Positions 3,272-52,730 are shown, counted from the stretch's first letter. The stretch: 64,000 nt of DNA from Candidatus Zixiibacteriota bacterium (GCA_026983835.1 JALSTH010000104.1:3862-67861); one strand, 5' to 3'. Numbers and translations are program-made. The notes: generated from the sequence alone by a model not told the origin.

Positions 3272-3282
3272 GTGGGAAAACT

Positions 3283-3750: not shown

Positions 3751-3788
3751 TCCGAACTATTTGAGCACAAAATACAAGGAGAGCACAG

Positions 3789-4145: not shown

Positions 4146-4244
4146 AAAATAAGTTAAGACGAGGTAAATCGGATGTTTCGGCTATGTTTACGCTTTCGAA
4201 TATTACAAAATTGTTAACGGCTAATCTTATTAGGGGCTAATATA

Positions 4245-12830: not shown

Positions 12831-12840
12831 AATAATTTTT

Positions 12841-13104
12841 GTGTGCACCCACCTCCGACCCTCTGCACAAATGCGCATCGGGGTAGTTAACTCAGACCGA
12901 GCCACCCCGCAACACACCGAGTGTTCGCTTACCGCTGCTACCTTCCGGTCCTGACGGGGTTCGGCGATCTTCAGTTGTGCGGGACCCGATCCTCAACGCC
13001 ACTTGCACCGATAACGCAAATGGCTTTAGGCCTCGGGTGGGAATTCGACCCCGGTATAGCGGATTCCGGGTTACAGGGCACCGCTAGCTCCCCGTCTAGC
13101 ACAT
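12841..13104 (-). ncRNA. ffs: Signal recognition particle RNA, long (Bacillus-type, Alu-domain-containing) form, about 264 nt
   Basis: Minus-strand sequence contains the domain IV core GUCAGGACCGGAAGGUAGCAGC. The 5' part (GUGCUAGACGGGGAGCUAGCGGUGCCCUGUAACCCGGAAUCCGCU...) closely parallels the Alu domain of B. subtilis scRNA, and the 3' end (...GGUGGGUGCACAC) pairs back with the 5' end. It lies between tRNA-Ala and dnaX, as in the scr-dnaX-yaaK-recR arrangement. Confidence 0.85.
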
Positions 13105-13113: not shown

Positions 13114-13186
13114 TGGAGTTGAGGAGATTCGAACTCCCGGCCTCCTGAGTGCGATTCAGGCGCTCTCCCAGCTGAGCTACAACCCC
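13114..13186 (-). tRNA. tRNA-Ala (anticodon CGC); CCA not encoded
   Basis: Minus strand reads GGGGTTGTAGCTCAGCTGGGAGAGCGCCTGAATCGCACTCAGGAGGCCGGGAGTTCGAATCTCCTCAACTCCA. It folds as a cloverleaf and carries the G3:U70 Ala identity pair. The anticodon loop is AUCGCAC. Confidence 0.85.
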
Positions 13187-15226: not shown

Positions 15227-15428
15227 TCGATAAACACGCATAAACCTCATCAATCCCCCCTTGAAAGCAAAAAGACAATTTTATAATATGTGAAAGGATA
15301 TACACTATCCCTGCAAGCTACTGCATATAGTTGATATGACAATATTATATTATCTTAATTACACTTAGTTAATCCATTATGGGACAGCGGATAATATTTC
15401 GGTAGGTGATGATTCAAACAGCGGGGAT

Positions 15429-15443
15429 TGGCACATAATTTGC
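15429..15443 (+). promoter_or_regulatory. Sigma-54 (RpoN) -24/-12 promoter element, TGGCAC-N5-TTGC
   Basis: Sequence tTGGCACataatTTGCt matches the canonical consensus exactly, about 70 nt upstream of ATG 15514. A good Shine-Dalgarno (AAGGGAG) precedes the start. Confidence 0.55.
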
Positions 15444-15513
15444 TTGATTAATAAGGCGATAGTAGTAGGTTAGGAATTATTCTGAGCTCACAGGAAGTTA
15501 TAAGGGAGCATTT

Positions 15514-16338
15514 ATGAAGAAATATTTGATAGTATTGTTATTTATTTTCGCAATTGTGTGGGCACCACAGATTTATTCGCAGGAACGGCCTGCTGTTCAT
15601 ACTACATATCCTGAAAATGGTTTGTCGGGATCGATTATAATTACTCCCAATGATTCAACCTGTGAGATAGGAACTGATGGAGGATATTTCCGCTATGATG
15701 TTTTGATTAGTAATAATTATAGCCATTTGGCAAACGGTTATATATGGGGGAAGGTGCATAGTGTCGAAACTGGTCAGGAATGGGGTCCCCTGCTTTTGAC
15801 ATCGCTAACCTTAGGCCCTTATGAAACTCTATTGATAGAGGATGCGGATTTATATGTTCCTTATTGTATAAGTGAGGGGTCCTATTTATTTGTCGTCAGT
15901 ATTGGATGCTATCCGATTATAGTCGATAGTGATACAGCCGAGTTCTTTAAGGATGGTGAATCTGAAATAGATTGTCCTCCCAACCTTCTTGTTGATGAAA
16001 ATACTAACATTCCGCCGGGATCGGTTGAGTCTTCGTGTAATGGTGGTAGTATCGATGATAGCGGAATTATCCCTATGGCATTCAACATAAATAAAATTTA
16101 TCCTAATCCTTTTAATGCGTCGGTTAAAATAGATTTCAGCTTGTTCCAACCCAATGAAGTAAGAGTTAAAATTATAAATCTTGCGGGGGAGGTAATCGAA
16201 ACTCTTGAAAACAATTATATGGATGCCGGTGAACACGAGCTGATTTGGAAGGCATCTTCGAAGTCGTCAGGAATATATTTTATAGAATTAGAAGTTTCCG
16301 GGAAAAAGGAAATACGGAAGATATCTTTAATAAAATAA
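15514..16338 (+). CDS. Secreted protein with a type IX secretion system C-terminal sorting domain (Por_Secre_tail / type A CTD); the passenger domain has no known function
   Basis: N-terminal signal peptide MKKYLIVLLFIFAIVWAPQIYSQ. The C-terminal ~80 aa carry the canonical CTD motifs KIYPNPFNASVKIDF, SGIYFIELEV and a terminal KEIRKISLIK. Confidence 0.85.
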   Translation: MKKYLIVLLFIFAIVWAPQIYSQERPAVHTTYPENGLSGSIIITPNDSTCEIGTDGGYFRYDVLISNNYSHLANGYIWGKVHSVETGQEWGPLLLTSLTLGPYETLLIEDADLYVPYCISEGSYLFVVSIGCYPIIVDSDTAEFFKDGESEIDCPPNLLVDENTNIPPGSVESSCNGGSIDDSGIIPMAFNINKIYPNPFNASVKIDFSLFQPNEVRVKIINLAGEVIETLENNYMDAGEHELIWKASSKSSGIYFIELEVSGKKEIRKISLIK

Positions 16339-20228: not shown

Positions 20229-21152
20229 TCAAAAAGACTTTATGGGATTGTAAATCAGCGATACCAAAAGTTCACCAATTTGCTTAAGACTTTTTGGCGA
20301 ACATTTATCCGGCGTGTCAGATAGAGTGTGCCAATATGGATAATCAAAATCAATTATATCCACCATCGGGATACCTGCTTTTATCAGGGGTATATGGTCA
20401 TCGTAAACTTGATATTTAAGACGAGGGACAAAGCTTACTAACCCCAGCTCAGCAATAGCCCTACTGATCCATATCGATTCAACCAACGCTGGATTTGTGT
20501 AATAGGAATACTCCTCCATATATATTTGTAAATCCTTATCTCCGATCATATCCAAAAGTATCCCGTAGTCGGGGTAAGGGTAGGACTTTTGCGAAGCATA
20601 GTATTTGGAACCGAGGGAGAAATGCTCCAAGTCTCCCGCTTTTCCCCAATCCTCCCCGTCAAACAAAACAATTGTAATGCCAATCGGCGGCGGATATGTC
20701 GAAACCAAGCGAGCTATCTCCAAGAGAACTGCCACCCCAGAGGCACCATCGTTTGCTCCCAAAATAGGTTTTAACGCCTTTGTGGAATCACTTTCCTTGT
20801 CGGCACGAGGCCTAGTATCCCAGTGGGCACACAGAAGGATTCTATTTTGTTTCAACAAATCGAAAGAGGTAATTATGTTATACATTGGGATTGTGTTGTT
20901 CGGCAATTCGGGAGTGAAGTTTTGTTTTTCAACCGAATTGGAGTATTTTTTCAGATATGATACCAAAAATTCCCCGCATAGTCGATGTCCTTCTCCGCCG
21001 GGATTTCGGGTGCCAAAAGAGCATTGTTTCTCCAAAAGTCTAAAAGCATTCTTCTCATCGAAAAAGGGATATCCTTCGGGTTGGTTTTGAGCGAATCCAT
21101 CAATGCCGCAAAAGAGAACAGCAATTATAATTACCGAAAGTATTTTATTCAT
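20229..21152 (-). CDS. M28-family zinc peptidase-fold protein, glutaminyl-peptide cyclotransferase-like (secreted/lipoprotein)
   Basis: Signal peptide MNKILSVIIIAVLFCGIDGFAQ. Metal-site motifs CAHWDTRP, GANDGASGVAVLLEIA and VLFDGEDWG. Its start codon overlaps the sprA-like stop by 1 nt (translational coupling). Confidence 0.6.
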   Translation of the reverse strand: MNKILSVIIIAVLFCGIDGFAQNQPEGYPFFDEKNAFRLLEKQCSFGTRNPGGEGHRLCGEFLVSYLKKYSNSVEKQNFTPELPNNTIPMYNIITSFDLLKQNRILLCAHWDTRPRADKESDSTKALKPILGANDGASGVAVLLEIARLVSTYPPPIGITIVLFDGEDWGKAGDLEHFSLGSKYYASQKSYPYPDYGILLDMIGDKDLQIYMEEYSYYTNPALVESIWISRAIAELGLVSFVPRLKYQVYDDHIPLIKAGIPMVDIIDFDYPYWHTLSDTPDKCSPKSLKQIGELLVSLIYNPIKSF

Positions 21153-24100
21153 TAGAATCTTATCTCAGTCCATAATCCGATTTCGCGGGAATGTTGTTTC
21201 CTCCCCAATTTTTTATCATTGGTGTCCGACCAGCCTAACTTAAACCCACCGCTTATCTGACTGGAGAACGAATAGCTGGCATTGAAATCGAAGCTAAAGC
21301 TTTTTCTATCGGTCTCGGTTGTGTACGGATATCCGGGTTTGGCGTTCTCAGATTTATCATACTGTTGATTCGCCGTAATTCCAAGCGTTAAATTTGAATC
21401 GAATTTAATCCTTTTTAAGAAAGGCAGGTTTATTCCCTGAGGTGCCTTAAAGGAATAATTCAACGAAAGGGATATCGATGAACTCTTCGATCGAGTTGTG
21501 CTCTCACTTCCGCTTCTCAAATTTTCTTTCTTTGATTTGGAGGTCTCCATCTTCAAACTGGTCCTAATTCCATTTTTCCAATTAAGAGACCAAGAGAATA
21601 GAGGAGAGAACGATTTGGTAATATCTTTATTGGTTAATTCACCCGTGTTTGGATTTTCCTTTGTATCGGTTTTTACAGAATAGCCGGATTGCAATGAGGA
21701 AGATGAAGCAATTTTTTTCAGTAGCTTAATTTTTTCCAGGCCAGTTAAGTTTGCGGATATATCGGGAAATGTAGTCGAGACGGATTTAGTCGGTTCGGAT
21801 GTAGATCGGGTTATGGAGATACGCTGGGTATATGACCCATCCAATTTAAGAGAACTGAACGGCGCTATCCCCGATTTAAGGCTATAACTGTCGGTAAGCG
21901 ACTTGCTGTCGCCGGTTTGGATACGGATAGTGTCTGCTTTTGTTGAAACCCCCGGATCCTCGGTAAAGCCAAACCTGTAAAGGAAAGACGGCTGACCTAC
22001 TAACCCCGTTCTGCCGAAATTCTTAGAGCGTGTAAGAGAGCCGCGGATCGGGTCGAGAGAGGTAAAAATATCTTTAAACCTCTGCCATAACCATACTGGG
22101 CTTCCGGGCATAGGGGATTTTTTTATCTCTTCCTCAATTTGCTTTCCCTTTTCCCCCTCCGATTGATTGCTATTCTTTGGTGGCGCACCGATTCTTGGGA
22201 GTTTACTGCCCCTGGATTTTTTATAACCAAATAGCTTCTGTAGATTAAGCGATGTATCAAAAGAAATACTGTTGCTGCTACTCAATGATAATGTCGAATC
22301 GGGATGCTGTTTCGGATCTGAATTCTGATGGTAATTAGACGAGAAATTCATCCTCGTATCTAAAAAACTCAATATCTGAGGCCTCCAACCGGAACCGAAC
22401 CTTTGAGTGTAATCTATTTCCTCTCCCAATTTCAATTTCTCCGGCTTGAATGATATATTTAATTGGTCACTCCTGCGGATATCTCGTATAGATGTAAAAT
22501 TGAAAGAGTAATCCATCGCATTAAAGGGGGAGTATTGTGTATTACCGCTTAATGTCAAATCACGGGTGAATGTGTCCGGAAGCCAACCGGTGCTTGAAAG
22601 CTTCTTACTTTTTAGCGAGCTCATATCTCCTTGAAAATATGTGGAAGCAGGGAAGAGGTAAAAGTCGGATTTGGAGAGTTTATTCAAAAGAAATATGTTT
22701 TTTGTCCAACCGAAAATGGAAAGCTTTGGTTTGGATTTTATCGACATATCATATTTACCGGAAAAGTTCCATCTATCGGTAGATGAAAAAGGAATAGTCG
22801 AGGTTTTAGATTCGGTGTATGAAGACGAAAAAGAACCCGAAAGACGGTTTAGTGTGGCATTGATAAACCAATTCCCCGTCTTCATATTCATCCGTTCGGA
22901 AACATTAAATTGAGTCGAAGTGTTCTTCGATGCTTCTTCGCTCCTCAACTCATCAGGTAAGACAACATCCGACCCCGGTTTTAATCGAGGTAAACTCAGC
23001 GTGCTTTGCCAAGACGCGGTAACAGGGATATTCAACCCTAATTCCGGAGGGAACAGTTTGTGCAATGATACACCCCCGCTTACACTGTTTGTTGTTTGAA
23101 TTGAACCCGGACCTTTTTTCTCCAATAGGGTAACAAAGTCTGCTCCTTTTCGCTGATACGATGCCGAGAAATTAACGAAATCCGCGAAATGCGCATCAAC
23201 ACTCATCCTTCCCGCCCAATCGGATTTATTGCGAGGGTTGGTTAAACGAAGTTCATCCACCCAGATCTCACCGCTGACAGGACCATCGGCCGAATTATCT
23301 ACCTCCAATCCTAAATCAAACCATCGGATTGTCGTCAAGGTTGGACGCCCTTTAACCGAATAATTGCCGTCAGTCGTGTCGGGAGTACCGCCGGTACTAT
23401 CGTTCCAATTCATAAGCATATAATTTTTCAGCGCTGTAATGTTTGCAAAATCAACAATCATATCATTGGAGGTTGCCCAACCGGGCGAAATATGATTATG
23501 ATATTCATAATAGTTTAACGAATCACTTCCGAACCTGAAAAAGAATTTTATTTCCCCCGAAGGGACGCCCGAAGCTATGTCCGGATCCCCATAGACAAAC
23601 ATCTGCATATTCTCGTAGTTGGAATAATCTTCCGCCGAATACGGTATCATAAAAGCATCAGCCCCACGACCCGGCCATAAATTATCATATTGGAGAACAA
23701 GCGATTGCTCTTTTTTGCGTAAACCGGTACTTCTGTCCCGTTCGCCGGATACTCCCGGAGGCGAAAAGTAATCGGTATTCTCCTGAGTATTTTTAACCGT
23801 CACTTCAAATTTCTCACCGGGATACTGCGGTATTGGATGAAATTGCGGAATAGCATCCGAAGAATCGGAAACGGAAAATATCTTCCCAACTTCCCATTTA
23901 TTACCTACCAGTTGGAATTGAGCTATTTGCAGAGTTATTGTGTCTTCCCCGGTAAACCAAAAACGTGCAAATTCTATTTGATTCCAATCGGGGAATCCCG
24001 TCTTGGAGAACATTGTAGAATCCTTAATCGGAATCCGATATAATTTCCAACCGGTCGGGGTACCATCTTTTAGAGTTGAATCGGCAATAAAACTGGTACT

Positions 24101-27082
24101 GTCCAAATCGAAACTAAATGAGAAATAACTATTGTTTCTGTCCAATCCACCGTTATTGTTTATATCCTCAGTATCGGGCTTCCATCCCCTATCGGGGTCT
24201 TCACGGTTGTTCTCAGTCCCGTTTATATGACTATAATCATACCTGTCGGAATAATTCCAATCATCCCCGTGAGGATCCCCCGGTTCCCAAAATTTTGTTG
24301 AATCCTCATTGGCATCGAAAACGCCATCTAGACCGGTATCCTCATCCTCTTCCAAAACGCCATCGCTGATACCATTCTTACGATCCTCAGTGTCAAGGAC
24401 ACCATCCCCATCTATATCCTCATCTATCCTGCCCAAATCGATATGCATCACCGCATCGGCATTATCGGATTTGCGCATCCATATCTCAAGGAACTTACTT
24501 CTTGTTTGATCGTAAAGCCCGGGCGGTAAGGACCTCATTACTCCAGCCCACGCCGAATCGCTATCGGGGAAATATCGAACTTCAAGTATATTTGTTCTAT
24601 CCTCAGATTTTTTAACCTCTCTTTCGGGCCAGATATCGGTGAGTTTTAGCTGGTCGTAAGGATTGTACCACCACAAGCGCGAACGCTCGGGATCCATTGG
24701 CGTTAGAGAATCCTCTACCGGTTTGGAGCATAATGTCCAGGACCCTCGCAATATCGAAAGATCGGTGTATTCCCTGCTTGATTCGAAATCATCTATGAAC
24801 GCCTCCCCTTTGGTGTTCATATTCGGTACCGACTGGGCAAACTCCGCTTGGAAATCTAATGACGAATTAGATTCGGTTTCTATTAACGGTAGAGCGTCGA
24901 CAACAGAAGTCATAAATTTAGGCTCAAAATTAAGTGTTAAATCCGTATCCCAAACGAAATTGCGAGTAGGCTCCCTGCCCACACGGGGCCTTTGCTCATT
25001 TGATGTTTCACCCTTATAAAGAGCGGTCATTCCCAATTTGCTGTTATCGTTAAAGTGATAGTCGAGCCGGGTTCCAAAAAGCGATTTTTTCTCCGGCATA
25101 AAAAAGGGAGCAAACTCGTAATCGATAGTGATATTCGCATTCGGATCCGTTGCATCCTGCGTCAAAAAAGTAACCTGTCCCAATTCATATATTATATTAT
25201 AATCTTTCCCCCTTTGTAATGTCCTTCCATTTAGTTTCACCACCTCAGAACCTTTGATTATATTAGCGTGTCCCAGTGAAAAAGTGGCTTGCCGATTCAT
25301 TGTCTTAACTTTAAGATAATATTTTGATTTTTGATTTATAACGACGGAATTGGTCGAATTATATATTTCGGGTACCCTGTCCTCAGAATCCAAAGAATCG
25401 CTGTCAAATGGATGCATTATGGGAAATATCAATACTCCCGAAGACAAATAGACATAATCGAGGTCTACGATGTTATCCGGGGTTGGATTACCCGACAGAT
25501 CCTTTTGGTCTAATCCCAAAACTTGGATATAAGGTTTTCCCTTGTATTCCCACGGGTCGGTGTCAGGTTGCTCCCCACCCTTCGGCCCCTTATATATACT
25601 TATTTCCAAACCATCTTGACTAATATTGGTTCCTCCCAGACTATAAACATTCCTCCATTGATTTTCCCAAGTCGAGAAAGTGCTATCAGCATTGCTGCGC
25701 CATATTAATTTCAAAACCAAAGTGGTATCCTGCAAAACCGAATCGGAAGGGGGAGGACGGAAATAATCTTTTGTCCCTATGGTATCTGTTTGTCCACTAC
25801 CCCTAATTATCTCAATAAATGCTCCCAGAGTTGCGGTAGTAGATAATGAACGGTTGAGGATTACATAAAATTGCCTTCGATTCAATTCGTATTCGTCGCT
25901 GTCCATACGCCGAAATAAATCGTATTTATACTCATTGCGCTGCTCTTCATCCTCAGGTAATACAGGCGGTATTGTAGGGGAGACCATAACCATCGCATGT
26001 GGATCCGTTTGGTTATTTGTTTGTTCGTTTACATAGAGGTCAAAAGCTCCTATCGAATCACCGGAATTCGGATTGTACGGTATTCCCAAGAAAAAATATT
26101 TTCGGGGGACATAATCGTAATCACGAATGATAAGGTCGTTGCTTTCGGCTCCGGCGTTGAAAGTGGTTTTTTCCGTGGAACCGCGTTCCTGGCTGGCTAT
26201 CATTGTAATATCGAGTTTTCCCACCTGCGCCAAAGCCTTTATGCCGAATAATCCCTGCACACTTCCGGAATATCCCACAAATTGAGACCCGCCAATCGAC
26301 AAATTGGTGTTCCCTGCTTCAATCGATTTAATTATTTCATCCTCTTCACCGGTATATTTCAAATGAATACGATTCTCCAAATCGGACATAGCTTTTGAGT
26401 CCTGATCGACTTCCACGGATATTTTTGAGCCGATGGTACCGGTGATTTTGAATTTCGATTCCTGCTCCATATGAAGGTTGGGGAATTTGGATTGCTTATA
26501 GGTGGCTGTACTTTTTACACCCGAATCCCAGTCAGACTTACCCGAAAGCGATATTTTTCTATACCCCGTTACCCTCAGCGCTGGACCGCCTTCACCGATT
26601 ATGCTTCTCACCACCTTTGGAAACTTGATTGGTATCTCGTATCGAATGCCTTCGCTTTCTGTTCCTTTTTCCTTTTCGAAAAGATTCTTTTTTAATTCAT
26701 CCTTCCATGCATTTTTCATTACCATATCAATATCCTGCTTGAGATAAGAATCCCAAGGGACATATAGAGGCTTCAGGGTTTGATAACCACCTTCTGAATA
26801 ACTTATTTTCACCCAGCTTTCTTTATAAAAAAATTGAATATCCCTATTTATCTTGAATTTTGTTGAAAGTAGAGGCTGTCTTCTTTTGGTAATGGACAAA
26901 CCATAAACCGGGGCTTGATGATAAAAATCCAAATACTGGATTTTCGACTTATTCAAAGAAATTTTTAATTGTTGGGCAGTGGAAAAACCAAATGCAAAAA
27001 CAACAGCTATTAAACCTAATAATAGCCTTTGTGGAGTTAAAAGATTGGATATGAATTTTAGATGTGCCTTTAGGGACATCAA
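21152..27082 (-). CDS. sprA: Giant outer-membrane beta-barrel protein, SprA/Sov-like candidate T9SS translocon (1976 aa)
   Basis: N-terminal signal peptide (LLLGLIAVVFAFGFSTAQ), then beta-rich sequence throughout with aromatic-terminated strands. Size and composition are typical of the SprA family. It contains internal thrombospondin-type-3-like Asp-rich Ca-binding repeats. The identification is by recognition, not by an HMM hit. Confidence 0.65.
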   Translation of the reverse strand: MMSLKAHLKFISNLLTPQRLLLGLIAVVFAFGFSTAQQLKISLNKSKIQYLDFYHQAPVYGLSITKRRQPLLSTKFKINRDIQFFYKESWVKISYSEGGYQTLKPLYVPWDSYLKQDIDMVMKNAWKDELKKNLFEKEKGTESEGIRYEIPIKFPKVVRSIIGEGGPALRVTGYRKISLSGKSDWDSGVKSTATYKQSKFPNLHMEQESKFKITGTIGSKISVEVDQDSKAMSDLENRIHLKYTGEEDEIIKSIEAGNTNLSIGGSQFVGYSGSVQGLFGIKALAQVGKLDITMIASQERGSTEKTTFNAGAESNDLIIRDYDYVPRKYFFLGIPYNPNSGDSIGAFDLYVNEQTNNQTDPHAMVMVSPTIPPVLPEDEEQRNEYKYDLFRRMDSDEYELNRRQFYVILNRSLSTTATLGAFIEIIRGSGQTDTIGTKDYFRPPPSDSVLQDTTLVLKLIWRSNADSTFSTWENQWRNVYSLGGTNISQDGLEISIYKGPKGGEQPDTDPWEYKGKPYIQVLGLDQKDLSGNPTPDNIVDLDYVYLSSGVLIFPIMHPFDSDSLDSEDRVPEIYNSTNSVVINQKSKYYLKVKTMNRQATFSLGHANIIKGSEVVKLNGRTLQRGKDYNIIYELGQVTFLTQDATDPNANITIDYEFAPFFMPEKKSLFGTRLDYHFNDNSKLGMTALYKGETSNEQRPRVGREPTRNFVWDTDLTLNFEPKFMTSVVDALPLIETESNSSLDFQAEFAQSVPNMNTKGEAFIDDFESSREYTDLSILRGSWTLCSKPVEDSLTPMDPERSRLWWYNPYDQLKLTDIWPEREVKKSEDRTNILEVRYFPDSDSAWAGVMRSLPPGLYDQTRSKFLEIWMRKSDNADAVMHIDLGRIDEDIDGDGVLDTEDRKNGISDGVLEEDEDTGLDGVFDANEDSTKFWEPGDPHGDDWNYSDRYDYSHINGTENNREDPDRGWKPDTEDINNNGGLDRNNSYFSFSFDLDSTSFIADSTLKDGTPTGWKLYRIPIKDSTMFSKTGFPDWNQIEFARFWFTGEDTITLQIAQFQLVGNKWEVGKIFSVSDSSDAIPQFHPIPQYPGEKFEVTVKNTQENTDYFSPPGVSGERDRSTGLRKKEQSLVLQYDNLWPGRGADAFMIPYSAEDYSNYENMQMFVYGDPDIASGVPSGEIKFFFRFGSDSLNYYEYHNHISPGWATSNDMIVDFANITALKNYMLMNWNDSTGGTPDTTDGNYSVKGRPTLTTIRWFDLGLEVDNSADGPVSGEIWVDELRLTNPRNKSDWAGRMSVDAHFADFVNFSASYQRKGADFVTLLEKKGPGSIQTTNSVSGGVSLHKLFPPELGLNIPVTASWQSTLSLPRLKPGSDVVLPDELRSEEASKNTSTQFNVSERMNMKTGNWFINATLNRLSGSFSSSYTESKTSTIPFSSTDRWNFSGKYDMSIKSKPKLSIFGWTKNIFLLNKLSKSDFYLFPASTYFQGDMSSLKSKKLSSTGWLPDTFTRDLTLSGNTQYSPFNAMDYSFNFTSIRDIRRSDQLNISFKPEKLKLGEEIDYTQRFGSGWRPQILSFLDTRMNFSSNYHQNSDPKQHPDSTLSLSSSNSISFDTSLNLQKLFGYKKSRGSKLPRIGAPPKNSNQSEGEKGKQIEEEIKKSPMPGSPVWLWQRFKDIFTSLDPIRGSLTRSKNFGRTGLVGQPSFLYRFGFTEDPGVSTKADTIRIQTGDSKSLTDSYSLKSGIAPFSSLKLDGSYTQRISITRSTSEPTKSVSTTFPDISANLTGLEKIKLLKKIASSSSLQSGYSVKTDTKENPNTGELTNKDITKSFSPLFSWSLNWKNGIRTSLKMETSKSKKENLRSGSESTTRSKSSSISLSLNYSFKAPQGINLPFLKRIKFDSNLTLGITANQQYDKSENAKPGYPYTTETDRKSFSFDFNASYSFSSQISGGFKLGWSDTNDKKLGRKQHSREIGLWTEIRF

Positions 27083-27147
27083 TTCAAATTACCGTTTGAA
27101 TTGTTTTTATTACCTTTACATTGTCCCGATAGGCTCCTCCTATTTAT

Positions 27148-28131
27148 TTATAATCGAATGAATTTCAAAAGTTCCGTATATTCCCCAAAATCGCCAACAG
27201 GCATAACTTCCATCTGCAAATTCAAACCGAATTTATCCAAAACCCGACGCTTAAGTTCCGCCGCCAAGCGGATTACATCCGAAGCCTTTGCATTTCCGTG
27301 ATTAACGAACATATTCGAATGCTTTTTAAATACTCCCGCATCTCCTACCCTAAAATCACGAGCACCTATCTGTTCCAAATACCAACCCGCTGCAGTTTTC
27401 ATACCACTTACTGCCGGATTTTTAAAATTCTTAAAGAAACTGCCAGCCGAAGGAATATCAATCGGATGCCGTTCGGTTCTAATTGAGCGATGTCTATCTA
27501 TTAGCCCTTTTATCTCCGAACGATTACCCTTCCTTAGTTTAAGTGTTACCGACAACAACAGCTCCTTACTTTCTTTTAGGGCTGAACGACGATATCCGAA
27601 ATGAAAATAATCTTTATCAACTATGCTTATATCGCCTTTAATATCATAAACAACTGCTTTGCCGAGCAACTCGGATATAGAACCGCCAAAAGCCCCGGCA
27701 TTACCGCAGATCGCCCCCCCCATAGTTCCCCATATCCCGGCGGCAAATTCTAAACCGCTCAAAGAATGCTCCGCCGATAAATCCACAATATCATTAAGAA
27801 GTGCTCCACTTTGGGCGGTTATATATTCATCCTCACAAAAGTATTCCTTGCATTCGTTTTTAATTACTAATCCTCTAAATCCATTATCGCCCACAAGGAT
27901 ATTCGAACCACCGCCCAATACAAAATAGCCCAAGCCAAGTTTTTTTGCTCGGTTTATTCCTCCAATTAATTTATCCGGTGTGTTGGCAATCAAAAAATAA
28001 TCTGCAACTCCACCTATCCTGAATGAAGTATGCTTGGATAAGGGTTCATTTTCAAGCAGGTTTTCACCGAAATAATCTTCCAATTGCCATTTAACTTTAG
28101 ATGGCTTCATTCTTTTGGTGCCTTTATCCAT
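27148..28131 (-). CDS. murB: UDP-N-acetylenolpyruvoylglucosamine reductase
   Basis: FAD-binding domain FRIGGVADYFLIANTPDKL...GGGSNILV and the C-terminal MurB domain. Length 327 aa. Confidence 0.9.
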   Translation of the reverse strand: MDKGTKRMKPSKVKWQLEDYFGENLLENEPLSKHTSFRIGGVADYFLIANTPDKLIGGINRAKKLGLGYFVLGGGSNILVGDNGFRGLVIKNECKEYFCEDEYITAQSGALLNDIVDLSAEHSLSGLEFAAGIWGTMGGAICGNAGAFGGSISELLGKAVVYDIKGDISIVDKDYFHFGYRRSALKESKELLLSVTLKLRKGNRSEIKGLIDRHRSIRTERHPIDIPSAGSFFKNFKNPAVSGMKTAAGWYLEQIGARDFRVGDAGVFKKHSNMFVNHGNAKASDVIRLAAELKRRVLDKFGLNLQMEVMPVGDFGEYTELLKFIRL

Positions 28132-28298
28132 ATGGACGGTATTTTTTATGCTCCGATAATTCTAACATATAAATTATAACAGAAATCAATACACGGAATA
28201 TTATAATTTTAAAAGTTTCTATTATCATTAATAAGTTATGATAAAACCCCTAAAAATCAAGCATATATTTATATTATCGGTAAAAACCCTAATGTAAT

Positions 28299-28568
28299 CT
28301 ATGGTTCTCGGGTATTATCACTAATTTCTTCAATGGAGTAATAATTGACACCATCTTTCTTTGGAATACTTTTTTGCGGTATATCGAGAACCGTTATCAA
28401 ATAATAACCACGGCGAAGACTAATCCCTATCTTATCATTTATTCTAATTTCTTTTCCGGGCTTGGCTCGATTATCATTTATTTTAACCTTTCCCGCATCG
28501 CATAACTGGCGCGCAATTGTCCGCCTTTTAACCAAACCAACCGTTGAAAGAAATAAATCAATTCTCAT
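28299..28568 (-). CDS. S4-domain RNA-binding protein (Hsp15/YlmH-like)
   Basis: 89 aa. [41 protein letters not shown] is a canonical S4 fold signature. Confidence 0.7.
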   Translation of the reverse strand: MRIDLFLSTVGLVKRRTIARQLCDAGKVKINDNRAKPGKEIRINDKIGISLRRGYYLITVLDIPQKSIPKKDGVNYYSIEEISDNTREP

Positions 28569-29854
28569 TAATCGATATTACGAATCTGTACGAAATATGT
28601 TTTTCGAGCCTCTCTTATCATCTCCTGAAGCTTATCGTTTGCTTTCTGACGCCTTGCCATTTCCTTGAGTTCATCCCAATCCAGCTTTAGATTTACAGGC
28701 CTTTTAGGTTGGCGGTCTAATATTTTGATTATATGAATACCGGAGCTACTCACTATAGGCGGTATTATTGTCCCCGCTTTTTTATCGCCGACAGCCTTCT
28801 TAAAATCCGAGGATAACTCATCAGCCGCATACCAGCCAAGTTCACCGCCAAAAACACGCGAATCCTCATCGTCGGAGTATTTCTTGGCTAACTCTTCAAA
28901 AGGAGTGCCGGAAACAGCCATCTGATAAATGCTGTCCGCTTTTGCCATAGCCCGAGAGGTATCGGTGGATGTTGGGATTGTGGAGATGAGAATATGACTG
29001 CATCTTATTTGCTCTCCGTCGCGATCGGTACATTTTATAATGTGATAACCGAAATCGGTCTTGACAACTTTCGAAATTTGTCCTGACACGAGGGAGTAAG
29101 CTGCTTTTTCAAATTCCGGAACCATATCGCCGCGCCCGAAAAATCCCAAATCTCCACCGCGGGTTGCGGTAGGATCATCGGAATATTCTTTGGCTAATTG
29201 AGAAAACTCAGCCCCGTTCAGCAATTCGGTATGAAGCGAATCAGCCAGTCTTTTCTTCTCATTCAGCGTTTCTTCTCCGGGTTTAATCGAAATAAGTATA
29301 TGAGCCAATTTTACGCTGGCGGGTCTTTCGGGAAGGCTATCCTTGTATGTATTATAAAAATCTTTGACTTCCTGATTATTAACCGTTGTCTGACTCAGCT
29401 CCTTATTTAAAAAACGATCCTTCAGAAGTTGATTGGCAACCTCATCTCTGTATTTTATGCGGAGATCCTTTAATGTCAATCCTTCGGCTTTTAATTGTTG
29501 CTTAAAGGATTCTTCCGAGGGAAATTTTGAGCGCACATCCTTTATATGTTTTTCCAATGCCTTGTCGATTTCATCTTTCGTAATACTTATGGTTGTGTCC
29601 TCTCGCGCAAGTGCCAAAAGTAGTTTGTCATCTACCATTTTATTCAATATTTCCATTTTTGCGCTATCTATTTCCGTTGGAGACATTTCCTTAAACGCCC
29701 TCTGAGAGGCAAGCAATTGATATTGAGATATAAACTCACTATACAAAATTATATCCGAGTCAACTACCGCGACAATTTTATCAACTGTCTTGGAATTAAC
29801 TGTCATCGAAAAACATAATATGAATATTACTATAAATAAATGTTTTTTCCACAT
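28568..29854 (-). CDS. Periplasmic peptidyl-prolyl isomerase/chaperone, SurA/PrsA-like with two parvulin domains
   Basis: Signal peptide plus a SurA N-domain. Two parvulin cores ([20 protein letters not shown]...FGYHIIK and [20 protein letters not shown]...GIHIIKI). Confidence 0.8.
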
Positions 29855-29967
29855 AAAAACTCCGAAGCCGAAATTAATTCAGCATAAAGTATCCTTTTAG
29901 GTTCGGAATATCAAGTTTAATTATTTGCCAAAGCCTAAATAACTCTGTTTGAAAAACAATATTCTCT

Positions 29968-31677
29968 CTATTGAATTATTTTACGGTTTGAAATAATCAG
30001 CGTTTCCAAGAGTTTGTAATTTATTTTTGCATTATATCGCTTTCTTAATTCTTTTAGAATATCTTCCTTGGCTTTCCTTCTTGCCTCAGCAAGTAAATCA
30101 GATCTAATATCATATTTTACATCATCAAACTTTTTGACTTTGGGCTTGACGATATTTTCCACCTTAATAATCCCGAACCCTTTGCTTGTCTTGATAGGAC
30201 CGATTATATCCCCGATTTCGGCGCTTTGCGTTTCCTTATAATATTTCGGAAATTCACCCGCTGTAATCCAACCTAAATCGCCTTTCTTTACAGCCGAATA
30301 ACGCCTTTTACTAAATTTATACGCTAATTCGCCGAAACTGCCTCCATTATTTACCATCTTCAAAACCCGTTCAGCATCATCTTTATTATCCAAAAGAATC
30401 TCTCGAACACGAGCCTTTCCCTCAACTGTATATTTGGTTTTGTTTCGATTGTATTCCCCCAAAATATCATTATCCGTTATTTTGATGTTCCCATTAATTC
30501 GAATCATCATATAATCGGAGAGCGTTTTAATATAAATAAGCCTCCATTGTAATTTGAACCTTGAATCATTATAATATCCATCCTCCTCCGCCTTTTTGTA
30601 CAACATCTTATCGAATAGCAATCTTTTTAAAAAATAGATATAGCTGCCATCATCCCCAGCTATCGGGTATAGCGCAGGTCTAAGCTTTGAAAAACCATCC
30701 AAGAACCCGGAAAAGGACAAAGTATCATCATCGAATATCACAAATGGTGTATTAAGTTCATCCTCGGTGAAATAGGAAAGCTTGAAAGGAATTACACTGT
30801 TGTTTAGGTGGGGGAGAGCTTTAAGCCTTTTTTCATAAAGGGCGATTATTTTTCTATCGATTAAAGGGTTGTATCTTTCCCATAAAGAATCGCTCAGTTC
30901 CTGAGATAATTTTGCCTCTGTGAGCTTTCGAGCCTTTACAGACAGTTTAGCATAATCCTTATTATTCGGCTTATTGCCCTTTCTAAACCCTTCAATCTTT
31001 ATTATCCAATATGAATCAGCCGCCAAAAAGGGTCGGGAATAAGTTCCCACCTTCAATGTGTCAATGACCGTTCTTACCTTTGCGGGATAGTAAACTTTGG
31101 GGACAAAGTCGGTGATGCCGTCTGTCGATTTTGAAAATAAGTCGATGGAGTAATTTATCACCAATAGCTTAAAATTCACTCCGTTCATCAAGCGCTTATA
31201 AACACTCAATGCCGTATCAGGGGGGGCATTTAGACGGATTATCGAAAGCTTTACCTCATCGCTAAAGTTTTGCTTTAAGGTATCGAGTTTGTCCTCATAA
31301 TATTTGGATTTCGAAGTTATATTGTCAATATAATATAATTGCGCTTCTAGTTTTTGGCGTTCGGTCTTAAGCCTTCTTTTAATCTTCGCCATCTTATCGA
31401 ACCCGGAGTCGATTGCAGCAAAGGCAAGCAGTTGTTTATCGATGATATTTTCTAAAATATTCTTTTTAATTTCATATTCCTGCTCCACTGATAGATAGCC
31501 GCGCGGTTTTGATTCATCAAAAATATTATTAATCAAATCCGCGCTAATAGTGCTATCGCCGACCGTCGCTAAAATGGCGCCATCTGAATCATCAAAAGAT
31601 TTACTACACCCCCAAAAACATAAAAAGAATACAGAAATTGATATGAAAACAAGAAAACTTATTTTATTACTCAACAT
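29968..31677 (-). CDS. Periplasmic chaperone with a single C-terminal parvulin PPIase domain (PpiD/SurA-like)
   Basis: N-terminal TM/signal, long chaperone-like region, and C-terminal GDLGWITAGEFPKYYKETQSAEIGDIIGPIKTSKGFGIIKV. Confidence 0.7.
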   Translation of the reverse strand: MLSNKISFLVFISISVFFLCFWGCSKSFDDSDGAILATVGDSTISADLINNIFDESKPRGYLSVEQEYEIKKNILENIIDKQLLAFAAIDSGFDKMAKIKRRLKTERQKLEAQLYYIDNITSKSKYYEDKLDTLKQNFSDEVKLSIIRLNAPPDTALSVYKRLMNGVNFKLLVINYSIDLFSKSTDGITDFVPKVYYPAKVRTVIDTLKVGTYSRPFLAADSYWIIKIEGFRKGNKPNNKDYAKLSVKARKLTEAKLSQELSDSLWERYNPLIDRKIIALYEKRLKALPHLNNSVIPFKLSYFTEDELNTPFVIFDDDTLSFSGFLDGFSKLRPALYPIAGDDGSYIYFLKRLLFDKMLYKKAEEDGYYNDSRFKLQWRLIYIKTLSDYMMIRINGNIKITDNDILGEYNRNKTKYTVEGKARVREILLDNKDDAERVLKMVNNGGSFGELAYKFSKRRYSAVKKGDLGWITAGEFPKYYKETQSAEIGDIIGPIKTSKGFGIIKVENIVKPKVKKFDDVKYDIRSDLLAEARRKAKEDILKELRKRYNAKINYKLLETLIISNRKIIQ

Positions 31678-31692
31678 AAATTGGTTGATTCC

Positions 31693-36234: not shown

Positions 36235-36307
<73 letters not shown>

Positions 36308-38206: not shown

Positions 38207-39658
38207 GTGATGAGATTTTTGCGATTGATTATTTTAACCGCTGTAGTTTTATCAGTTCCTTCTTTACTTTGGGCGCAATGGTTTTGGCAGCAGCCAATGT
38301 TTGACCCAACGGGTATTAACCTTAATTTACATGGAACATCCACCAGAGCTCGCGGTATGGGTAATGCTTATTTGGCGATCTCCGATGATGTCGGCGGGGC
38401 AACATGGAATCCTGCCGGTGCCGCTTATTTGGAGAATGGAGAAGGTGTCGTTGAATTTCTTTCCAATGCATCTGATTACGATAATAACATAGGCAGGAAT
38501 TATAGTTTTAAATACAACACCAACGATAATATTTTCAGCAGTTTCGGCTACTTATCGCCCTTGAGGTTTTATAATCGCGACTATACGGTCGGAATAAATT
38601 ATTATAGATTATTCGATTTCAGCAGGGATTACGATGTAAATGTTCCCGATCGAAGGGAAAAATATTACAATAAATTTGGAGTCGAGGTCGTAAAACTTAC
38701 CGCCGCCACGAAAATTCTGCCAAATGTTTCCTTCGGCATAAATGGAAACATTTATATCCGCGGTTTTTCTGAAGATTACATCCAACATAACCCTCCTTTT
38801 TATTGGATTATCGGGAATGACACCACTTTTGTGCCATACCATTATCATAGCGGTACTTCTTTCAGGGGTATTAATTTTGATTTTGGTTTACAGGGACGCT
38901 TTGGTGGATTAAATATTGGGGCGGTTGTTTCAACCCCGTTTAAACTTAGACAAGAAAGTACTATAAAAAATACTGTAGTCGTCCCAGATTATGGGGAACA
39001 AGGTAATATAATAACTCAATCTTTTATGAAATATGATTTCCCGTTTGGTTATAGCGGAGGGGCATCTTATACTTTGAATAAACTGACCTTATCGGCGGAT
39101 ATTTCCTATTACCAATTCTCGAAATCTCGAAATTCAATGAATCCCTACTTCGCCGATGCTTTTTATCCCTATTCTTGGGACCCCTCGGTTCCCAATGAGG
39201 ATTACAATCCTTACTGGGCTGATATAATGCAGTATCGATTTGGAGCGGAGTATTTAATCGATGTAAGCAATTTGACCATCCCTATCAGAGCAGGTTATCG
39301 CAACGATCCCAAAATATACAGCGATGGAGATCAATTTTATGCAAGTGTTAGCAACAACCCTCTCCTGCCTCTTCCGCCGGGGACAATAACTCCTTATGGA
39401 GGAACGGAGTTTAATACTGATAATCAAGTGGTGGGATATGTAGTTTCGTTCGGTTCCGGTTTGAAATATAAAATCTACCGCCTTGATGTGGCTTATGAAT
39501 ATGGTCATGCCGAAAGAAATGTGCGAAATGTGGTTGTTGCTTTGGATGACATAGATAATGACTACAACCCGGTTTGGGGAGACAAACTATCCGATTACAC
39601 GCGGAAAATCAATGAGAATTTAAGCAAGCTATATATTTCGCTGACGGTGCAATTTTAA
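38207..39658 (+). CDS. FadL/TodX-family outer-membrane beta-barrel protein; in the T9SS context it could be a PorV-type shuttle
   Basis: Signal peptide ending LLWA. N-terminal family motif RARGMGNAYLAISDDVGGATWNPAG (compare FadL [24 protein letters not shown]). Beta-strand-rich throughout, with C-terminal aromatic residues. Confidence 0.6.
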   Translation: MMRFLRLIILTAVVLSVPSLLWAQWFWQQPMFDPTGINLNLHGTSTRARGMGNAYLAISDDVGGATWNPAGAAYLENGEGVVEFLSNASDYDNNIGRNYSFKYNTNDNIFSSFGYLSPLRFYNRDYTVGINYYRLFDFSRDYDVNVPDRREKYYNKFGVEVVKLTAATKILPNVSFGINGNIYIRGFSEDYIQHNPPFYWIIGNDTTFVPYHYHSGTSFRGINFDFGLQGRFGGLNIGAVVSTPFKLRQESTIKNTVVVPDYGEQGNIITQSFMKYDFPFGYSGGASYTLNKLTLSADISYYQFSKSRNSMNPYFADAFYPYSWDPSVPNEDYNPYWADIMQYRFGAEYLIDVSNLTIPIRAGYRNDPKIYSDGDQFYASVSNNPLLPLPPGTITPYGGTEFNTDNQVVGYVVSFGSGLKYKIYRLDVAYEYGHAERNVRNVVVALDDIDNDYNPVWGDKLSDYTRKINENLSKLYISLTVQF

Positions 39659-47665: not shown

Positions 47666-47669
47666 AATT

Positions 47670-49580: not shown

Positions 49581-49626
49581 TTACATCTCCCCTTCTTGGC
49601 TATACAAAACCTGAAAAAAGAATAAA

Positions 49627-49896: not shown

Positions 49897-49951
49897 TTTA
49901 CCCTCCCTGGCAATTTCAATGTAAAGGTTAGAAACCCTTTTCCATAACTTC

Positions 49952-51334: not shown

Positions 51335-51343
51335 AATTTTAGC

Positions 51344-52724: not shown

Positions 52725-52730
52725 ATCTTT

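What the first reader, a model, noticed from the sequence alone, without database searches (positions are those of the whole stretch)
20229..27147. sprA-like giant beta-barrel translationally coupled to a glutaminyl-cyclase-like M28 gene; Gln(+1) pattern on neighbouring exported proteins
The 1976-aa SprA-like gene stop and the M28/QC-like gene start share one nucleotide. In Porphyromonas, a periplasmic glutaminyl cyclase converts the N-terminal Gln left by signal peptidase I into pyroglutamate on most exported proteins. Reading predicted signal peptides in this window, the likely SPI sites leave Gln at +1 on four proteins. These are the SprA-like protein (FSTA|QQLK), the QC-like protein (DGFA|QNQP), the T9SS cargo (QIYS|QERP) and the FadL-like barrel (LLWA|QWFW). 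This suggests the Bacteroidota Q-rule extends to this lineage, and that QC is genetically tied to the translocon.
Basis: partly seen in the sequence, partly recalled or inferred. Interest (0 to 1): 0.6.

Follow-up and report, generated by a model that had tools for sequence, protein, structure and literature searches.

The report
T9SS translocon and glutaminyl cyclase operon
[quoted passage not shown] This gene pair turns out to be conserved across at least seven related phyla, which links two systems previously connected only by co-occurrence.

Summary
sprA (21152-27082, minus strand) and an M28 gene (20229-21152, minus strand) overlap by one base (TAATG).

- **Gene identities.** SprA scores 713 bits on TIGR04189, whose cutoff is 200. 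The M28 protein is a bacteroidal-type type II glutaminyl cyclase (QC), not a di-zinc aminopeptidase. It hits solved QCs at 1e-47 to 1e-51 and aminopeptidases only at about 1e-9. It carries the D-G, E-D and W-H discriminator motifs. All 50 best Foldseek hits in the PDB are QCs.
- **Lineage.** The lineage is probably Zixibacteria, not Bacteroidota.
- **Gln at +1.** The tally is 4 of 13 here and 33-49% across Zixibacteria loci. That is enriched but weaker than the 71% Bacteroidetes Q-rule, and non-Bacteroidetes values up to 77% were already published.
- **Gene linkage, the new part.** Searching from QC, 37 of 80 species loci have sprA immediately upstream. These come from Marinimicrobia, Ignavibacteria, Zixibacteria, Eisenbacteria, Gemmatimonadota, KSB1 and Calditrichaeota. 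Searching from SprA, 44 of 54 assessable metagenome loci have QC immediately downstream. About two-thirds of pairs have gaps of 20 nt or less, or overlap.
- **Where the link is absent.** It is absent in Bacteroidota-labelled genomes and in phyla with no SprA hit next to QC.
- **Prior reports.** I found no earlier report of this linkage.

A T9SS-specific role for QC is inferred, not shown.

The parts
21152..27082 (-). [quoted passage not shown] It is 1976 aa from the TTG at 27082, or 1975 aa from the ATG at 27079.
   Evidence: NCBIfam TIGR04189 surface_SprA scores 713 bits against a cutoff of 200. Pfam SprA_N (PF14349) scores 98 bits against a cutoff of 27. tblastn finds full-length relatives in more than 100 loci.
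26975..27082 (-). Predicted Sec signal peptide of SprA (residues 1-36). The predicted signal peptidase I (SPI) site is FSTA|QQLK, which leaves Gln37 as the N-terminus.
   Evidence: Reading of the translation plus the -3/-1 heuristic. Gln is the commonest predicted +1 residue in SprA homologues, at 21 of 71. No cleavage or pyroglutamate has been shown.
21150..21154 (-). TAATG stop/start overlap. The sprA stop is 21154-21152 and the QC start is 21152-21150, so one base is shared. This is the hallmark of co-transcription and possible translational coupling.
   Evidence: Sequence. No terminator-like site lies between the genes. Overlaps of -1 or -4 nt recur in 21 of 76 sprA-QC pairs elsewhere, and 27 more have gaps of 0-20 nt.
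20229..21152 (-). A 307-aa M28-fold protein, identified as a type II (bacteroidal/animal-type) glutaminyl cyclase. The predicted Zn ligands are D135, D168 and H275, and the catalytic residue is E167.
   Evidence: PDB sequence hits: 3gux 1.2e-51, TfQC 6qro 6e-49, PgQC 6qql 1e-47. The best aminopeptidase hit is 6hc6 at 7e-10. The QC-versus-aminopeptidase discriminators from PMC7948796 are all present and invariant in 20 homologues: D135-G136, E167-D168 and W274-H275. The AlphaFold2 model has pLDDT 89, and all 50 top Foldseek PDB hits are QCs, with TM 0.82-0.90 to bacteroidal QCs.
21090..21152 (-). Signal peptide of QC (residues 1-21). The predicted SPI site is DGFA|QNQP. C15 aligns with the lipobox Cys of homologues, but F at -1 makes signal peptidase II cleavage unlikely.
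   Evidence: Other QCs that lack a lipobox also show [ASG]|Q: L003 AYG|Q, L018 IYS|Q, L019 VAG|Q, L061 SYA|Q.
15514..16338 (+). T9SS cargo protein (274 aa) with a C-terminal type A sorting domain. The predicted SPI site is QIYS|QERP.
   Evidence: Pfam Por_Secre_tail scores 42.3 bits (cutoff 27). TIGR04183 scores 35.9 bits (cutoff 23).
38207..39658 (+). A FadL/PorV-like outer-membrane barrel (483 aa). The predicted SPI site is LLWA|QWFW.
   Evidence: The hits are sub-threshold only: PorV_fam 42.9 bits (cutoff 90) and Toluene_X 21.7 bits (cutoff 29.7). The A|QW site is kept in two orthologues beside ProRS: L096 VVWA|QWWW and L097 NALS|QWFN.
27148..28131 (-). murB lies 65 nt upstream of sprA on the same strand. 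It may belong to the same transcription unit, but it is not part of the conserved core.
   Evidence: Pfam MurB_C and FAD_binding_4. murB lies upstream of sprA in only 6 of 27 genome contigs sprA-QC loci, labelled Ignavibacteria or Zixibacteria. It also lies upstream in the Zixibacteria loci L093 and L099.

Best explanation
This is a two-gene core operon, sprA-qc, in a probable Zixibacteria genome.

**Shown**
- sprA encodes the T9SS outer-membrane translocon.
- The overlapping downstream gene encodes a Sec-exported M28-fold enzyme. It carries every sequence and fold hallmark of the mono-zinc bacteroidal type II glutaminyl cyclases.
- The gene pair, with the same order, the same strand and usually a gap of 20 nt or less or an overlap, is conserved across at least seven FCB phyla. 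The flanking genes are not conserved.

**Inferred**
- The two genes are co-transcribed and qc translation is coupled to sprA, so QC is made whenever the translocon is made.
- In the periplasm, QC cyclises the N-terminal Gln that signal peptidase I exposes on a substantial minority (about one third to one half) of exported proteins.
- In this window those proteins include SprA itself, a CTD-bearing T9SS cargo and a PorV/FadL-like barrel.
- As shown for P. gingivalis, the pyroglutamate cap would protect such proteins from aminopeptidase trimming.
- The conserved pairing suggests that in these lineages the T9SS machinery and its surface-exposed or secreted cargo are a principal clientele of QC.
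- The looser genetic arrangement in Bacteroidota sensu stricto (QC unlinked, Q-rule near-universal) would then be a derived state.
For: **Gene identities.**

**Overlap.**

**Lineage.** The best named ProRS hits, at 74-76% identity, are Zixibacteria. Flagellar genes are present in the window.

**Synteny searched from QC** (80 species loci). sprA is adjacent on the same strand in:
- Marinimicrobia 7/7
- Ignavibacteria 6/7
- Zixibacteria 3/3, plus the window, L003, L093 and L099
- Eisenbacteria 3/3
- Gemmatimonadota 3/3
- KSB1 2/2
- Calditrichaeota 2/3

**Synteny searched from SprA.** 44 of 54 assessable metagenome loci have QC immediately downstream.

**Tight spacing.** 21 of 76 pairs overlap by 1 or 4 nt, and 27 of 76 have gaps of 0-20 nt.

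**Flanks are not conserved.** murB is present upstream in only 6 of 27 loci, and other neighbours in 3 or fewer.

**Depth of the association.** QCs adjacent to sprA are only 40-55% identical to one another and are spread over deep branches of the QC tree.

**Gln at +1.**
- 4 of 13 in this genome.
- 9 of 27 in pooled Zixibacteria loci, scored without looking at +1, P=4e-4 against a 9% baseline.
- Gln is the top +1 residue in SprA homologues, 21 of 71.
- In Zixibacteria loci several CTD cargoes and PorV-like barrels have A|Q sites.

**Published context.** PgQC cyclises N-terminal Gln of SPI substrates, and the cap stabilises them. OM-related and T9SS proteins have the highest Q-values, 88% and 86% (PMC5837995, PMC10653852).
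Against: - No experiment bears on this locus. Co-transcription, QC activity, zinc stoichiometry and pyroglutamate are all unmeasured.
- The Q(+1) frequency here is well below Bacteroidetes levels. With only 13-35 proteins it is not significantly different from my small E. coli control (2 of 15, Fisher P=0.27).
- In the Zixibacteria sample, T9SS-associated proteins are only non-significantly richer in Gln(+1) than other exported proteins (about 61% against 35%, my manual tally).
- QC homologues at 40-47% identity occur in Armatimonadota and Poribacteria loci with no SprA hit nearby. They also occur unlinked to sprA in Bacteroidota-labelled, Kryptonia and Fibrobacteres loci. QC does not therefore need sprA as a neighbour.
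- Two Zixibacteria chromosomes keep the pair but with 165-238 nt gaps, so translational coupling is not universal.
Confidence: 0.6

Rival explanations
1. General housekeeping QC. The enzyme serves all Gln(+1) exported proteins and has no special relation to the T9SS. The pairing with sprA would be a conserved envelope-biogenesis operon kept for convenience of co-expression or by inheritance.
For: - QC occurs without a SprA neighbour in Armatimonadota (0/12), Poribacteria (0/5) and Fibrobacteres (0/3) loci. It is unlinked in 11 of 11 Bacteroidota-labelled loci, where it sits among uvrB, prmA, ppx and rsmB.
- PgQC is in an operon with PG_2158 and hemG (PMC10653852).
- Non-T9SS proteins in Zixibacteria loci also carry Gln(+1).
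Against: - Gene order is rarely kept across seven or more phyla at 40-55% protein identity without a functional reason.
- Here only the pair survives while all flanks change.
- 81% of assessable SprA loci have QC downstream.
- In a second SprA clade the downstream gene is PorX-like, a T9SS regulator. The slot after sprA therefore tends to hold T9SS-related genes.
Confidence: 0.3
2. The Gln(+1) pattern in the window is a chance cluster and this organism has no Q-rule-like bias. QC would then act on few proteins or on other substrates.
For: - Only 4 of 13 signal peptides have Gln at +1.
- My heuristic gives 2 of 15 in E. coli, and Fisher tests are not significant.
- The flagellar ring proteins, SurA and three outer-membrane or secreted proteins nearby lack Gln.
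Against: - Gln makes up 2.8% of residues but is the commonest +1 residue in the window.
- It is also the commonest in pooled Zixibacteria loci, at 9 of 27 when scored without looking at +1 (P=4e-4 against 9%).
- The same holds in Marinimicrobia (7 of 17) and in SprA homologues (21 of 71).
- The A|QW site of the PorV/FadL-like barrel is conserved in three orthologues.
- Non-lipoprotein QCs repeatedly show [ASG]|Q.
Confidence: 0.1
3. The M28 protein is a di-zinc aminopeptidase that processes exported proteins, not a cyclase.
For: - Pfam assigns only the generic Peptidase_M28 family.
- All five canonical M28 metal-ligand positions are occupied: H110, D135, D168, D201 and H275.
- Several homologues are annotated as aminopeptidases in databases.
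Against: - Ligand conservation is also true of mono-zinc hQC (PMC11312887).
- The discriminating residues are of the QC type. Gly follows the ligand Asp, where aminopeptidases have Asp or Asn. The motif is E-D, where aminopeptidases have E-E. Trp precedes the ligand His, where aminopeptidases have Tyr (PMC7948796).
- E-values are about 40 orders of magnitude better to solved QCs than to aminopeptidases.
- No aminopeptidase appears among the top 50 structural matches.
Confidence: 0.03

Closest known systems
Bacteroidal type II glutaminyl cyclases (PgQC PG2157, PDB 6qql/7cje; TfQC 6qro; BtQC 4fuu/7d1e; PdQC 3tc8)
   Same: - Same M28 alpha/beta fold, with TM 0.82-0.90 and rmsd 1.8-2.0 A to the model.
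- 34-36% identity in the structural alignments, and sequence E-values of 1e-44 to 1e-52.
- Same Zn ligand triad Asp/Asp/His, including the Asp that is specific to bacteroidal QCs.
- Same D-G and W-H motifs.
- Exported to the periplasm.
   Different: - PgQC is an inner-membrane lipoprotein, and most homologues have a lipobox. The window protein appears to be a soluble SPI substrate whose own N-terminus would be Gln.
- PgQC lies in an operon with PG_2158 and hemG (PMC10653852). This one overlaps sprA.
- The host is probably Zixibacteria, not Bacteroidota.
SprA/Sov, the T9SS translocon of Flavobacterium johnsoniae and Porphyromonas gingivalis
   Same: It matches the equivalog model TIGR04189 well above its cutoff, and Pfam SprA_N. 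It has an N-terminal signal peptide. A CTD-bearing cargo is encoded nearby.
   Different: - It is about 350 residues shorter than the 2319-position model.
- It comes from a flagellated, non-Bacteroidota FCB lineage.
- It is followed by QC. I know of no such neighbour in the model organisms, but that rests on my own knowledge and on PMC10653852 for P. gingivalis only.
The Bacteroidetes Q-rule (Bochtler et al. 2018, PMC5837995; Mizgalska et al. 2023, PMC10653852)
   Same: Gln is the commonest residue after predicted SPI sites. A type II QC is present. Gln(+1) proteins in these loci include several outer-membrane and T9SS proteins, the categories with the highest Q-values in P. gingivalis.
   Different: The frequency is 31% here, and 33-49% across Zixibacteria loci. 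Bacteroidetes average 71%, with more than 48% in 99% of species. Periplasmic flagellar proteins and SurA do not follow it. No pyroglutamate data exist for this lineage.
Di-zinc M28 aminopeptidases (Aeromonas/Vibrio proteolytica AAP, Streptomyces griseus SGAP, Bacillus YwaD 6hc6)
   Same: Same fold family (Pfam PF04389), and the same five metal-ligand positions are occupied.
   Different: Similarity is only about 1e-9. The second-shell and motif residues are of the QC type, not the aminopeptidase type.
sprA-porX arrangement in a second SprA clade (metagenome loci L159, L162, L165-L167, L169-L171, L176)
   Same: sprA is followed on the same strand, after a short gap, by a conserved partner gene.
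   Different: The partner is a Response_reg+PglZ protein (PorX-like), followed by tsaE and tsaB, not QC.

Membership tests
Type II glutaminyl cyclase (mono-zinc M28 fold, bacteroidal subtype) | Closer in sequence to characterised QCs than to M28 aminopeptidases | tested here: met
   QCs hit at 1.2e-51 to 1.5e-43, and the best aminopeptidase (6hc6) at 7e-10.
Type II glutaminyl cyclase (mono-zinc M28 fold, bacteroidal subtype) | Zn1 ligands Asp, Asp (Glu in animal QCs) and His, plus the adjacent catalytic Glu | tested here: met
   D135, D168, H275 and E167 align with PgQC D149, D183, H299 and E182 (alignment; PMC7948796). They are invariant in 20 homologues.
Type II glutaminyl cyclase (mono-zinc M28 fold, bacteroidal subtype) | Second-shell discriminators: Gly after the ligand Asp (aminopeptidases have Asp/Asn) and Trp before the ligand His (aminopeptidases have Tyr) | tested here: met
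   D135-G136 and W274-H275. The criteria come from PMC7948796 and PMC11312887.
Type II glutaminyl cyclase (mono-zinc M28 fold, bacteroidal subtype) | QC fold | tested here: met
   AlphaFold2 pLDDT 89.2, pTM 0.88. The Foldseek PDB top 50 are all QCs.
Type II glutaminyl cyclase (mono-zinc M28 fold, bacteroidal subtype) | One zinc per active site, and Gln-cyclising activity | not testable with these tools
   This needs metal analysis and an H-Gln-AMC assay.
SprA/Sov T9SS translocon | Match to the curated equivalog model above its cutoff | tested here: met
   TIGR04189 scores 713 bits against a cutoff of 200. PF14349 scores 98.3 against 27.
SprA/Sov T9SS translocon | Other T9SS parts in the genome (CTD cargo, PorV) | tested here: inconclusive
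   The CTD cargo is above cutoff. The PorV-like barrels are below cutoff. Only about 80 kb of the genome was seen.
SprA/Sov T9SS translocon | Giant 36-strand beta-barrel | not tested
   The protein exceeds the 1200-residue limit of the structure tool.
Bacteroidetes Q-rule | Gln at +1 in most SPI substrates (more than 48% in 99% of species, mean 71%) | tested here: inconclusive
   4 of 13 (31%) in this genome. Across Zixibacteria loci, 9 of 27 automated and about 17 of 35 manual. The samples are small and my heuristic also under-calls Bacteroidota-labelled loci (8 of 17). The whole proteome is not available.
Bacteroidetes Q-rule | N-terminal Gln actually converted to pyroglutamate | not testable with these tools
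   This needs N-terminal proteomics.
Di-zinc M28 aminopeptidase | Asp/Asn after the bridging Asp, an E-E motif, and Tyr-His at the C-terminal ligand | tested here: not met
   The window protein has D-G, E-D and W-H instead.

The most novel reading that the evidence does not exclude
[quoted passage not shown] It would be made stoichiometrically with SprA and would act on the translocon and on cargo in transit, possibly in physical association with the translocon. The near-universal Q-rule of Bacteroidota would then have evolved by generalising this T9SS-linked N-terminal capping after the genes became unlinked.
Probability: 0.25. Interest if true: 0.8.

Novelty: new variant of a known kind. Interest (0 to 1): 0.6.

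Why it matters
The phylogenetic coincidence of T9SS and high Q-values was noticed in 2018. It was then set aside, because pyroglutamate does not gate secretion in P. gingivalis.

A tightly spaced, often overlapping sprA-qc gene pair, kept across at least seven phyla while everything around it changes, is independent genomic evidence that the two systems are functionally connected. It gives concrete experiments:

- Does QC stabilise SprA or cargo?
- Does QC bind the translocon?

It also shows that T9SS and type II QC occur together well outside Bacteroidota. Finally, it suggests a simple genomic marker, sprA followed by an M28 gene, for annotating both genes in uncultured FCB lineages, where the QC is usually mislabelled as 'M28 family peptidase'.

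Tried and rejected
- **Taxon name by exact lookup.** The lineage was inferred from ProRS hits instead.
- **Window species in the genome set.** The window's own species was not among the kept hits of the genome-contig scan. The best QC hit was 51% identical.
- **Rfam scan.** It found only SRP RNA and two tRNAs, and nothing in the sprA-QC region.
- **Promoter and terminator scans.** Both were at chance level and uninformative.
- **Type I (beta-propeller) QC as a replacement.** I looked for one downstream of SprA genes that lack the M28 gene. None was found. The neighbours are PorX-like/TsaE/TsaB, an HD-GAF protein, a T2SS ATPase, an OEP protein or unknowns.
- **T9SS genes beside unlinked QCs.** In Bacteroidota and Kryptonia loci only housekeeping genes turned up.
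- **E. coli control.** It was underpowered, with 15 signal peptides.
- **Judging the second metal site from ligand residues.** I rejected this after reading PMC11312887.
- **Literature searches.** Six searches for any report of sprA-QC or M28 linkage found none. The library lacks most subscription-journal papers, so the absence is not proof.
- **SprA C-terminus as a search probe.** I abandoned it because mean column identity was only 30%. The full-length alignment was used instead.


Full report
**Observation.** The ORF list and the sequence confirm two minus-strand genes, 21152-27082 (1976 aa from TTG, or 1975 aa from the next-codon ATG) and 20229-21152 (307 aa). The junction reads AGATTC-TAA-TG-AAT. 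The stop is 21154-21152 and the start is 21152-21150, so one base is shared. No terminator-like site lies between them, and promoter-like matches are at chance level.

**SprA identity.** The large protein is SprA/Sov. NCBIfam TIGR04189 scores 713 bits against a cutoff of 200, and Pfam SprA_N scores 98 bits.

**QC identity.** The small protein hits only the generic Pfam Peptidase_M28 family. Against solved structures, its best sequence matches are the bacteroidal type II glutaminyl cyclases: 3gux 1.2e-51, TfQC 6qro 6e-49, PgQC 6qql 1e-47 and 7cje 1.2e-47. Animal QCs hit at about 1e-8 to 1e-11, and the first di-zinc aminopeptidase only at 7e-10.

Taudte et al. (PMC7948796) list what separates bacteroidal QCs from aminopeptidases:
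- Zn ligands Asp149, Asp183 and His299, where Asp183 is specific to bacteroidal QCs.
- Gly after Asp149, where aminopeptidases have Asn or Asp.
- Trp298 before the His ligand, where aminopeptidases have Tyr.

The window protein has D135-G136, E167-D168 and W274-H275. All are invariant in an alignment of 20 homologues. An AlphaFold2 model (pLDDT 89, pTM 0.88) finds only glutaminyl cyclases among its 50 best PDB matches. The bacteroidal enzymes come first, at TM 0.82-0.90 and rmsd 1.8-2.0 A.

Human QC keeps the Zn2 residues H140, D159 and D248, yet that site is empty (PMC11312887). The equivalents here (H110, D135, D201) are likewise conserved.

**Lineage.** The window carries flagellar rod, ring and hook-associated genes plus MotA/MotB, so it is not a classical Bacteroidota genome. 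Its prolyl-tRNA synthetase has best named hits at 74-76% identity, all labelled Zixibacteria. QC homologues at 50-55% identity come from Zixibacteria, KSB1, Kryptonia and Calditrichaeota. The window is positions 63499-127498 of the 179-kb contig ERZ27262647 k141_524001.

**Gln at +1, in this genome.** The four quoted sites exist and obey the -3/-1 rule. The window plus a further 9.3 kb of the contig also encode nine SPI-type signal peptides without Gln. These are SurA, a small OMP barrel, FlgI, FlgH, FlgA, the 60683 protein, a LamG protein, a CitMHS transporter and a DUF5723 barrel. There are two lipoproteins as well. A heuristic that chooses the cleavage site without looking at +1 gives the same total, 4 of 13. 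This is far above the 2.8% Gln content (P=3.6e-4). It is modestly above a 7-9% baseline (P=0.01-0.02). The same heuristic gives 2 of 15 on 200 kb of E. coli.

**Gln at +1, in other Zixibacteria loci.** Adding L003, L027, L071, L075 and L093-L096 gives 9 of 27 by the blind heuristic (P=4e-4 against 9%). Manual reading that also includes L097-L099 gives about 17 of 35. That count includes several CTD cargoes, a PorV-like barrel, and three orthologues of the barrel beside ProRS that all keep A|QW or S|QW. Gln is also the commonest predicted +1 residue of SprA homologues, at 21 of 71.

The lineage therefore shows a real but relaxed bias, not the 71% rule of Bacteroidetes. Bochtler et al. (PMC5837995) already reported a continuum of Q-values outside Bacteroidetes, from 2% to 77%, with the maximum in Ignavibacterium album.

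**QC's own N-terminus.** Most QC homologues are lipoproteins, and their lipobox Cys aligns with C15 here. Phe at -1 makes a lipobox unlikely in this protein. Other non-lipoprotein QCs also show [ASG]|Q. DGFA|Q is therefore the better reading, but it is not certain.

**Gene linkage, searched from QC.** A scan of one genome per species with a QC alignment returned 80 loci. In 37 of them a full-length SprA homologue ends just upstream on the same strand:
- Marinimicrobia 7/7
- Ignavibacteria 6/7
- Zixibacteria 3/3
- Eisenbacteria 3/3
- Gemmatimonadota 3/3
- KSB1 2/2, plus Zhuqueibacter
- Calditrichaeota 2/3
- Several unclassified MAGs

The closest relative (65% identical QC) and the Zixibacteria loci L093 (chromosome CP070839.1) and L099 have it too. 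It is absent from 11 Bacteroidota-labelled loci, 2 Kryptonia, 3 Fibrobacteres, 12 Armatimonadota, 5 Poribacteria and single Sumerlaeota, Cloacimonadota and Chlorobi loci.

**Gene linkage, searched from SprA.** A metagenome scan with a SprA alignment gave 80 loci. Of 54 with a complete, C-terminally alignable SprA and at least 700 bp downstream, 44 have QC immediately downstream. Twelve more divergent SprA genes lack QC downstream. Eight of these, plus L176 from the assessable set, are followed by a ~522-aa ORF and two short ORFs. In the one locus scanned (L165) these are a PorX-like response regulator (Response_reg+PglZ), TsaE and TsaB.

**Spacing, flanks and depth.** Among 76 pairs with a recognisable QC signal peptide, 21 overlap by 1 or 4 nt and 27 have gaps of 0-20 nt. 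The flanks are not conserved. murB precedes sprA in only 6 of 27 loci and nothing else recurs. Adjacent pairs lie on deep, separate branches of a QC tree. Where QC is unlinked in the Bacteroidota/Kryptonia clade, it sits among uvrB, comF-like, prmA, ppx and rsmB.

**What is known.** Published work establishes that:
- PgQC is an essential inner-membrane lipoprotein.
- It cyclises N-terminal Gln of SPI substrates.
- The cap stabilises the substrates.
- OM-related (88%) and T9SS (86%) proteins have the highest Q-values.
- PgQC lies in an operon with PG_2158 and hemG (PMC10653852).

Bochtler et al. noted the 'striking phylogenetic coincidence' of T9SS and high Q-values. [quoted passage not shown] Six full-text searches found no report of an sprA-QC operon. 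The library is incomplete, so this is not proof of novelty.

**Mechanism.** The shown parts are the two identities, the overlap and the cross-phylum conservation of the pair. The inferred parts are as follows:
- Co-transcription and, in this genome, translational coupling would tie QC synthesis to SprA synthesis.
- QC would act in the periplasm on Gln exposed by signal peptidase I.
- Its clients would include SprA, a PorV/FadL-like barrel and CTD cargo.
- The cap would protect them from aminopeptidases, as in P. gingivalis.

The main rival is that QC is a general housekeeping enzyme whose position next to sprA has no T9SS-specific meaning. That rival is supported by QC in loci with no SprA hit, and by unlinked QC in Bacteroidota. 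It is weakened by the survival of the pair alone across phyla. The aminopeptidase reading is effectively excluded by sequence and fold, pending biochemistry.

**Verdict.** The components are known families. The Q(+1) bias is a weaker form of a published phenomenon. The conserved sprA-qc operon appears to be unreported. It turns an old co-occurrence into a testable functional hypothesis.

Noticed in passing
L159, L162, L165-L167, L169-L171, L176 (downstream of SprA; e.g. L165:16361-19010): A second, more divergent SprA clade has a different conserved downstream block. By ORF sizes it recurs in all nine loci. In the one locus scanned with Pfam (L165) it is a PorX-like response regulator (Response_reg+PglZ) followed by TsaE and TsaB.
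   Followed up: partly
L029:6794-14216, and similar gene sizes in L012, L023, L028, L030, L039, L074: In Bacteroidota-labelled and Kryptonia loci, QC sits in a different co-directional cluster. In L029 this is uvrB, a ComF-like gene, QC, prmA, ppx/gppA and rsmB. The other loci share only the downstream gene sizes. There are no T9SS genes.
   Followed up: partly
L016, L017, L020, L025, L026, L035, L043, L057, L059, L061-L063, L065, L066, L072, L076, L084: Armatimonadota and Poribacteria encode QC homologues at 40-47% identity with no SprA hit nearby. Gln was still the top predicted +1 residue in the Armatimonadota loci, at 4 of 17. Whether those phyla have a Q bias is open.
   Followed up: no
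window 27148-35130 (-): sprA-QC is the 3' end of a long co-directional run: mfd, a PpiD-like lipoprotein PPIase, SurA, an S4-domain protein, murB, sprA and QC. The PPIase genes are kept only in the closest relative, L003.
   Followed up: partly
window 47132-57113 (-) and L088: A flagellar cluster (by N-terminal sequence: FlgK/FlgL-type hook-associated proteins, FlgI, FlgH, FlgA and rod proteins; in L088: FlhA, an FlhF-like protein and a sigma-70-family factor) sits in the same genome as a T9SS. The periplasmic P-ring, L-ring and FlgA proteins all lack Gln at +1.
   Followed up: partly
window 12841-13104 (-), 13114-13186 (-), 36235-36307 (+): A large bacterial SRP RNA (178 bits) and two tRNAs. 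The mechanical 591-aa ORF for DnaX (11142-12917) runs into the SRP RNA. The public gene call is 578 aa.
   Followed up: no
L094:15569-20207 (-) and 14198-15559 (-): A Zixibacteria chromosome has a run of beta-helix T9SS cargo paralogues. Their predicted sites are A|TQVSG or A|TIINI, so Gln is at +2 or absent. This shows that T9SS cargo in this phylum do not uniformly follow the Gln(+1) pattern.
   Followed up: partly
L041, L046, L052, L118, L130, L140 (QC N-termini): Many lipoprotein QCs have Gln directly after the lipobox Cys (GC|QT, GC|QS, NC|QN). No explanation was sought.
   Followed up: no
L021:6151-9942: In one unclassified MAG, QC is preceded by a 1263-aa TPR/YfiO-like protein instead of SprA. 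It might be PorW/SprE-like, but this was not tested.
   Followed up: no
window 1961-4646 (+); L087:11153-13838: A partner-switching module: a GAF-SpoIIE phosphatase, an HATPase_c_2 anti-sigma-type kinase and a STAS protein. It is followed by response regulators and a sigma-54 activator upstream of motA/motB.
   Followed up: no
L087:6407-9733 (-): Just left of the window lie a DUF5723 barrel with a weak PorV_fam hit (26.5 bits, cutoff 90) and a 676-aa lipoprotein of unknown family.
   Followed up: no
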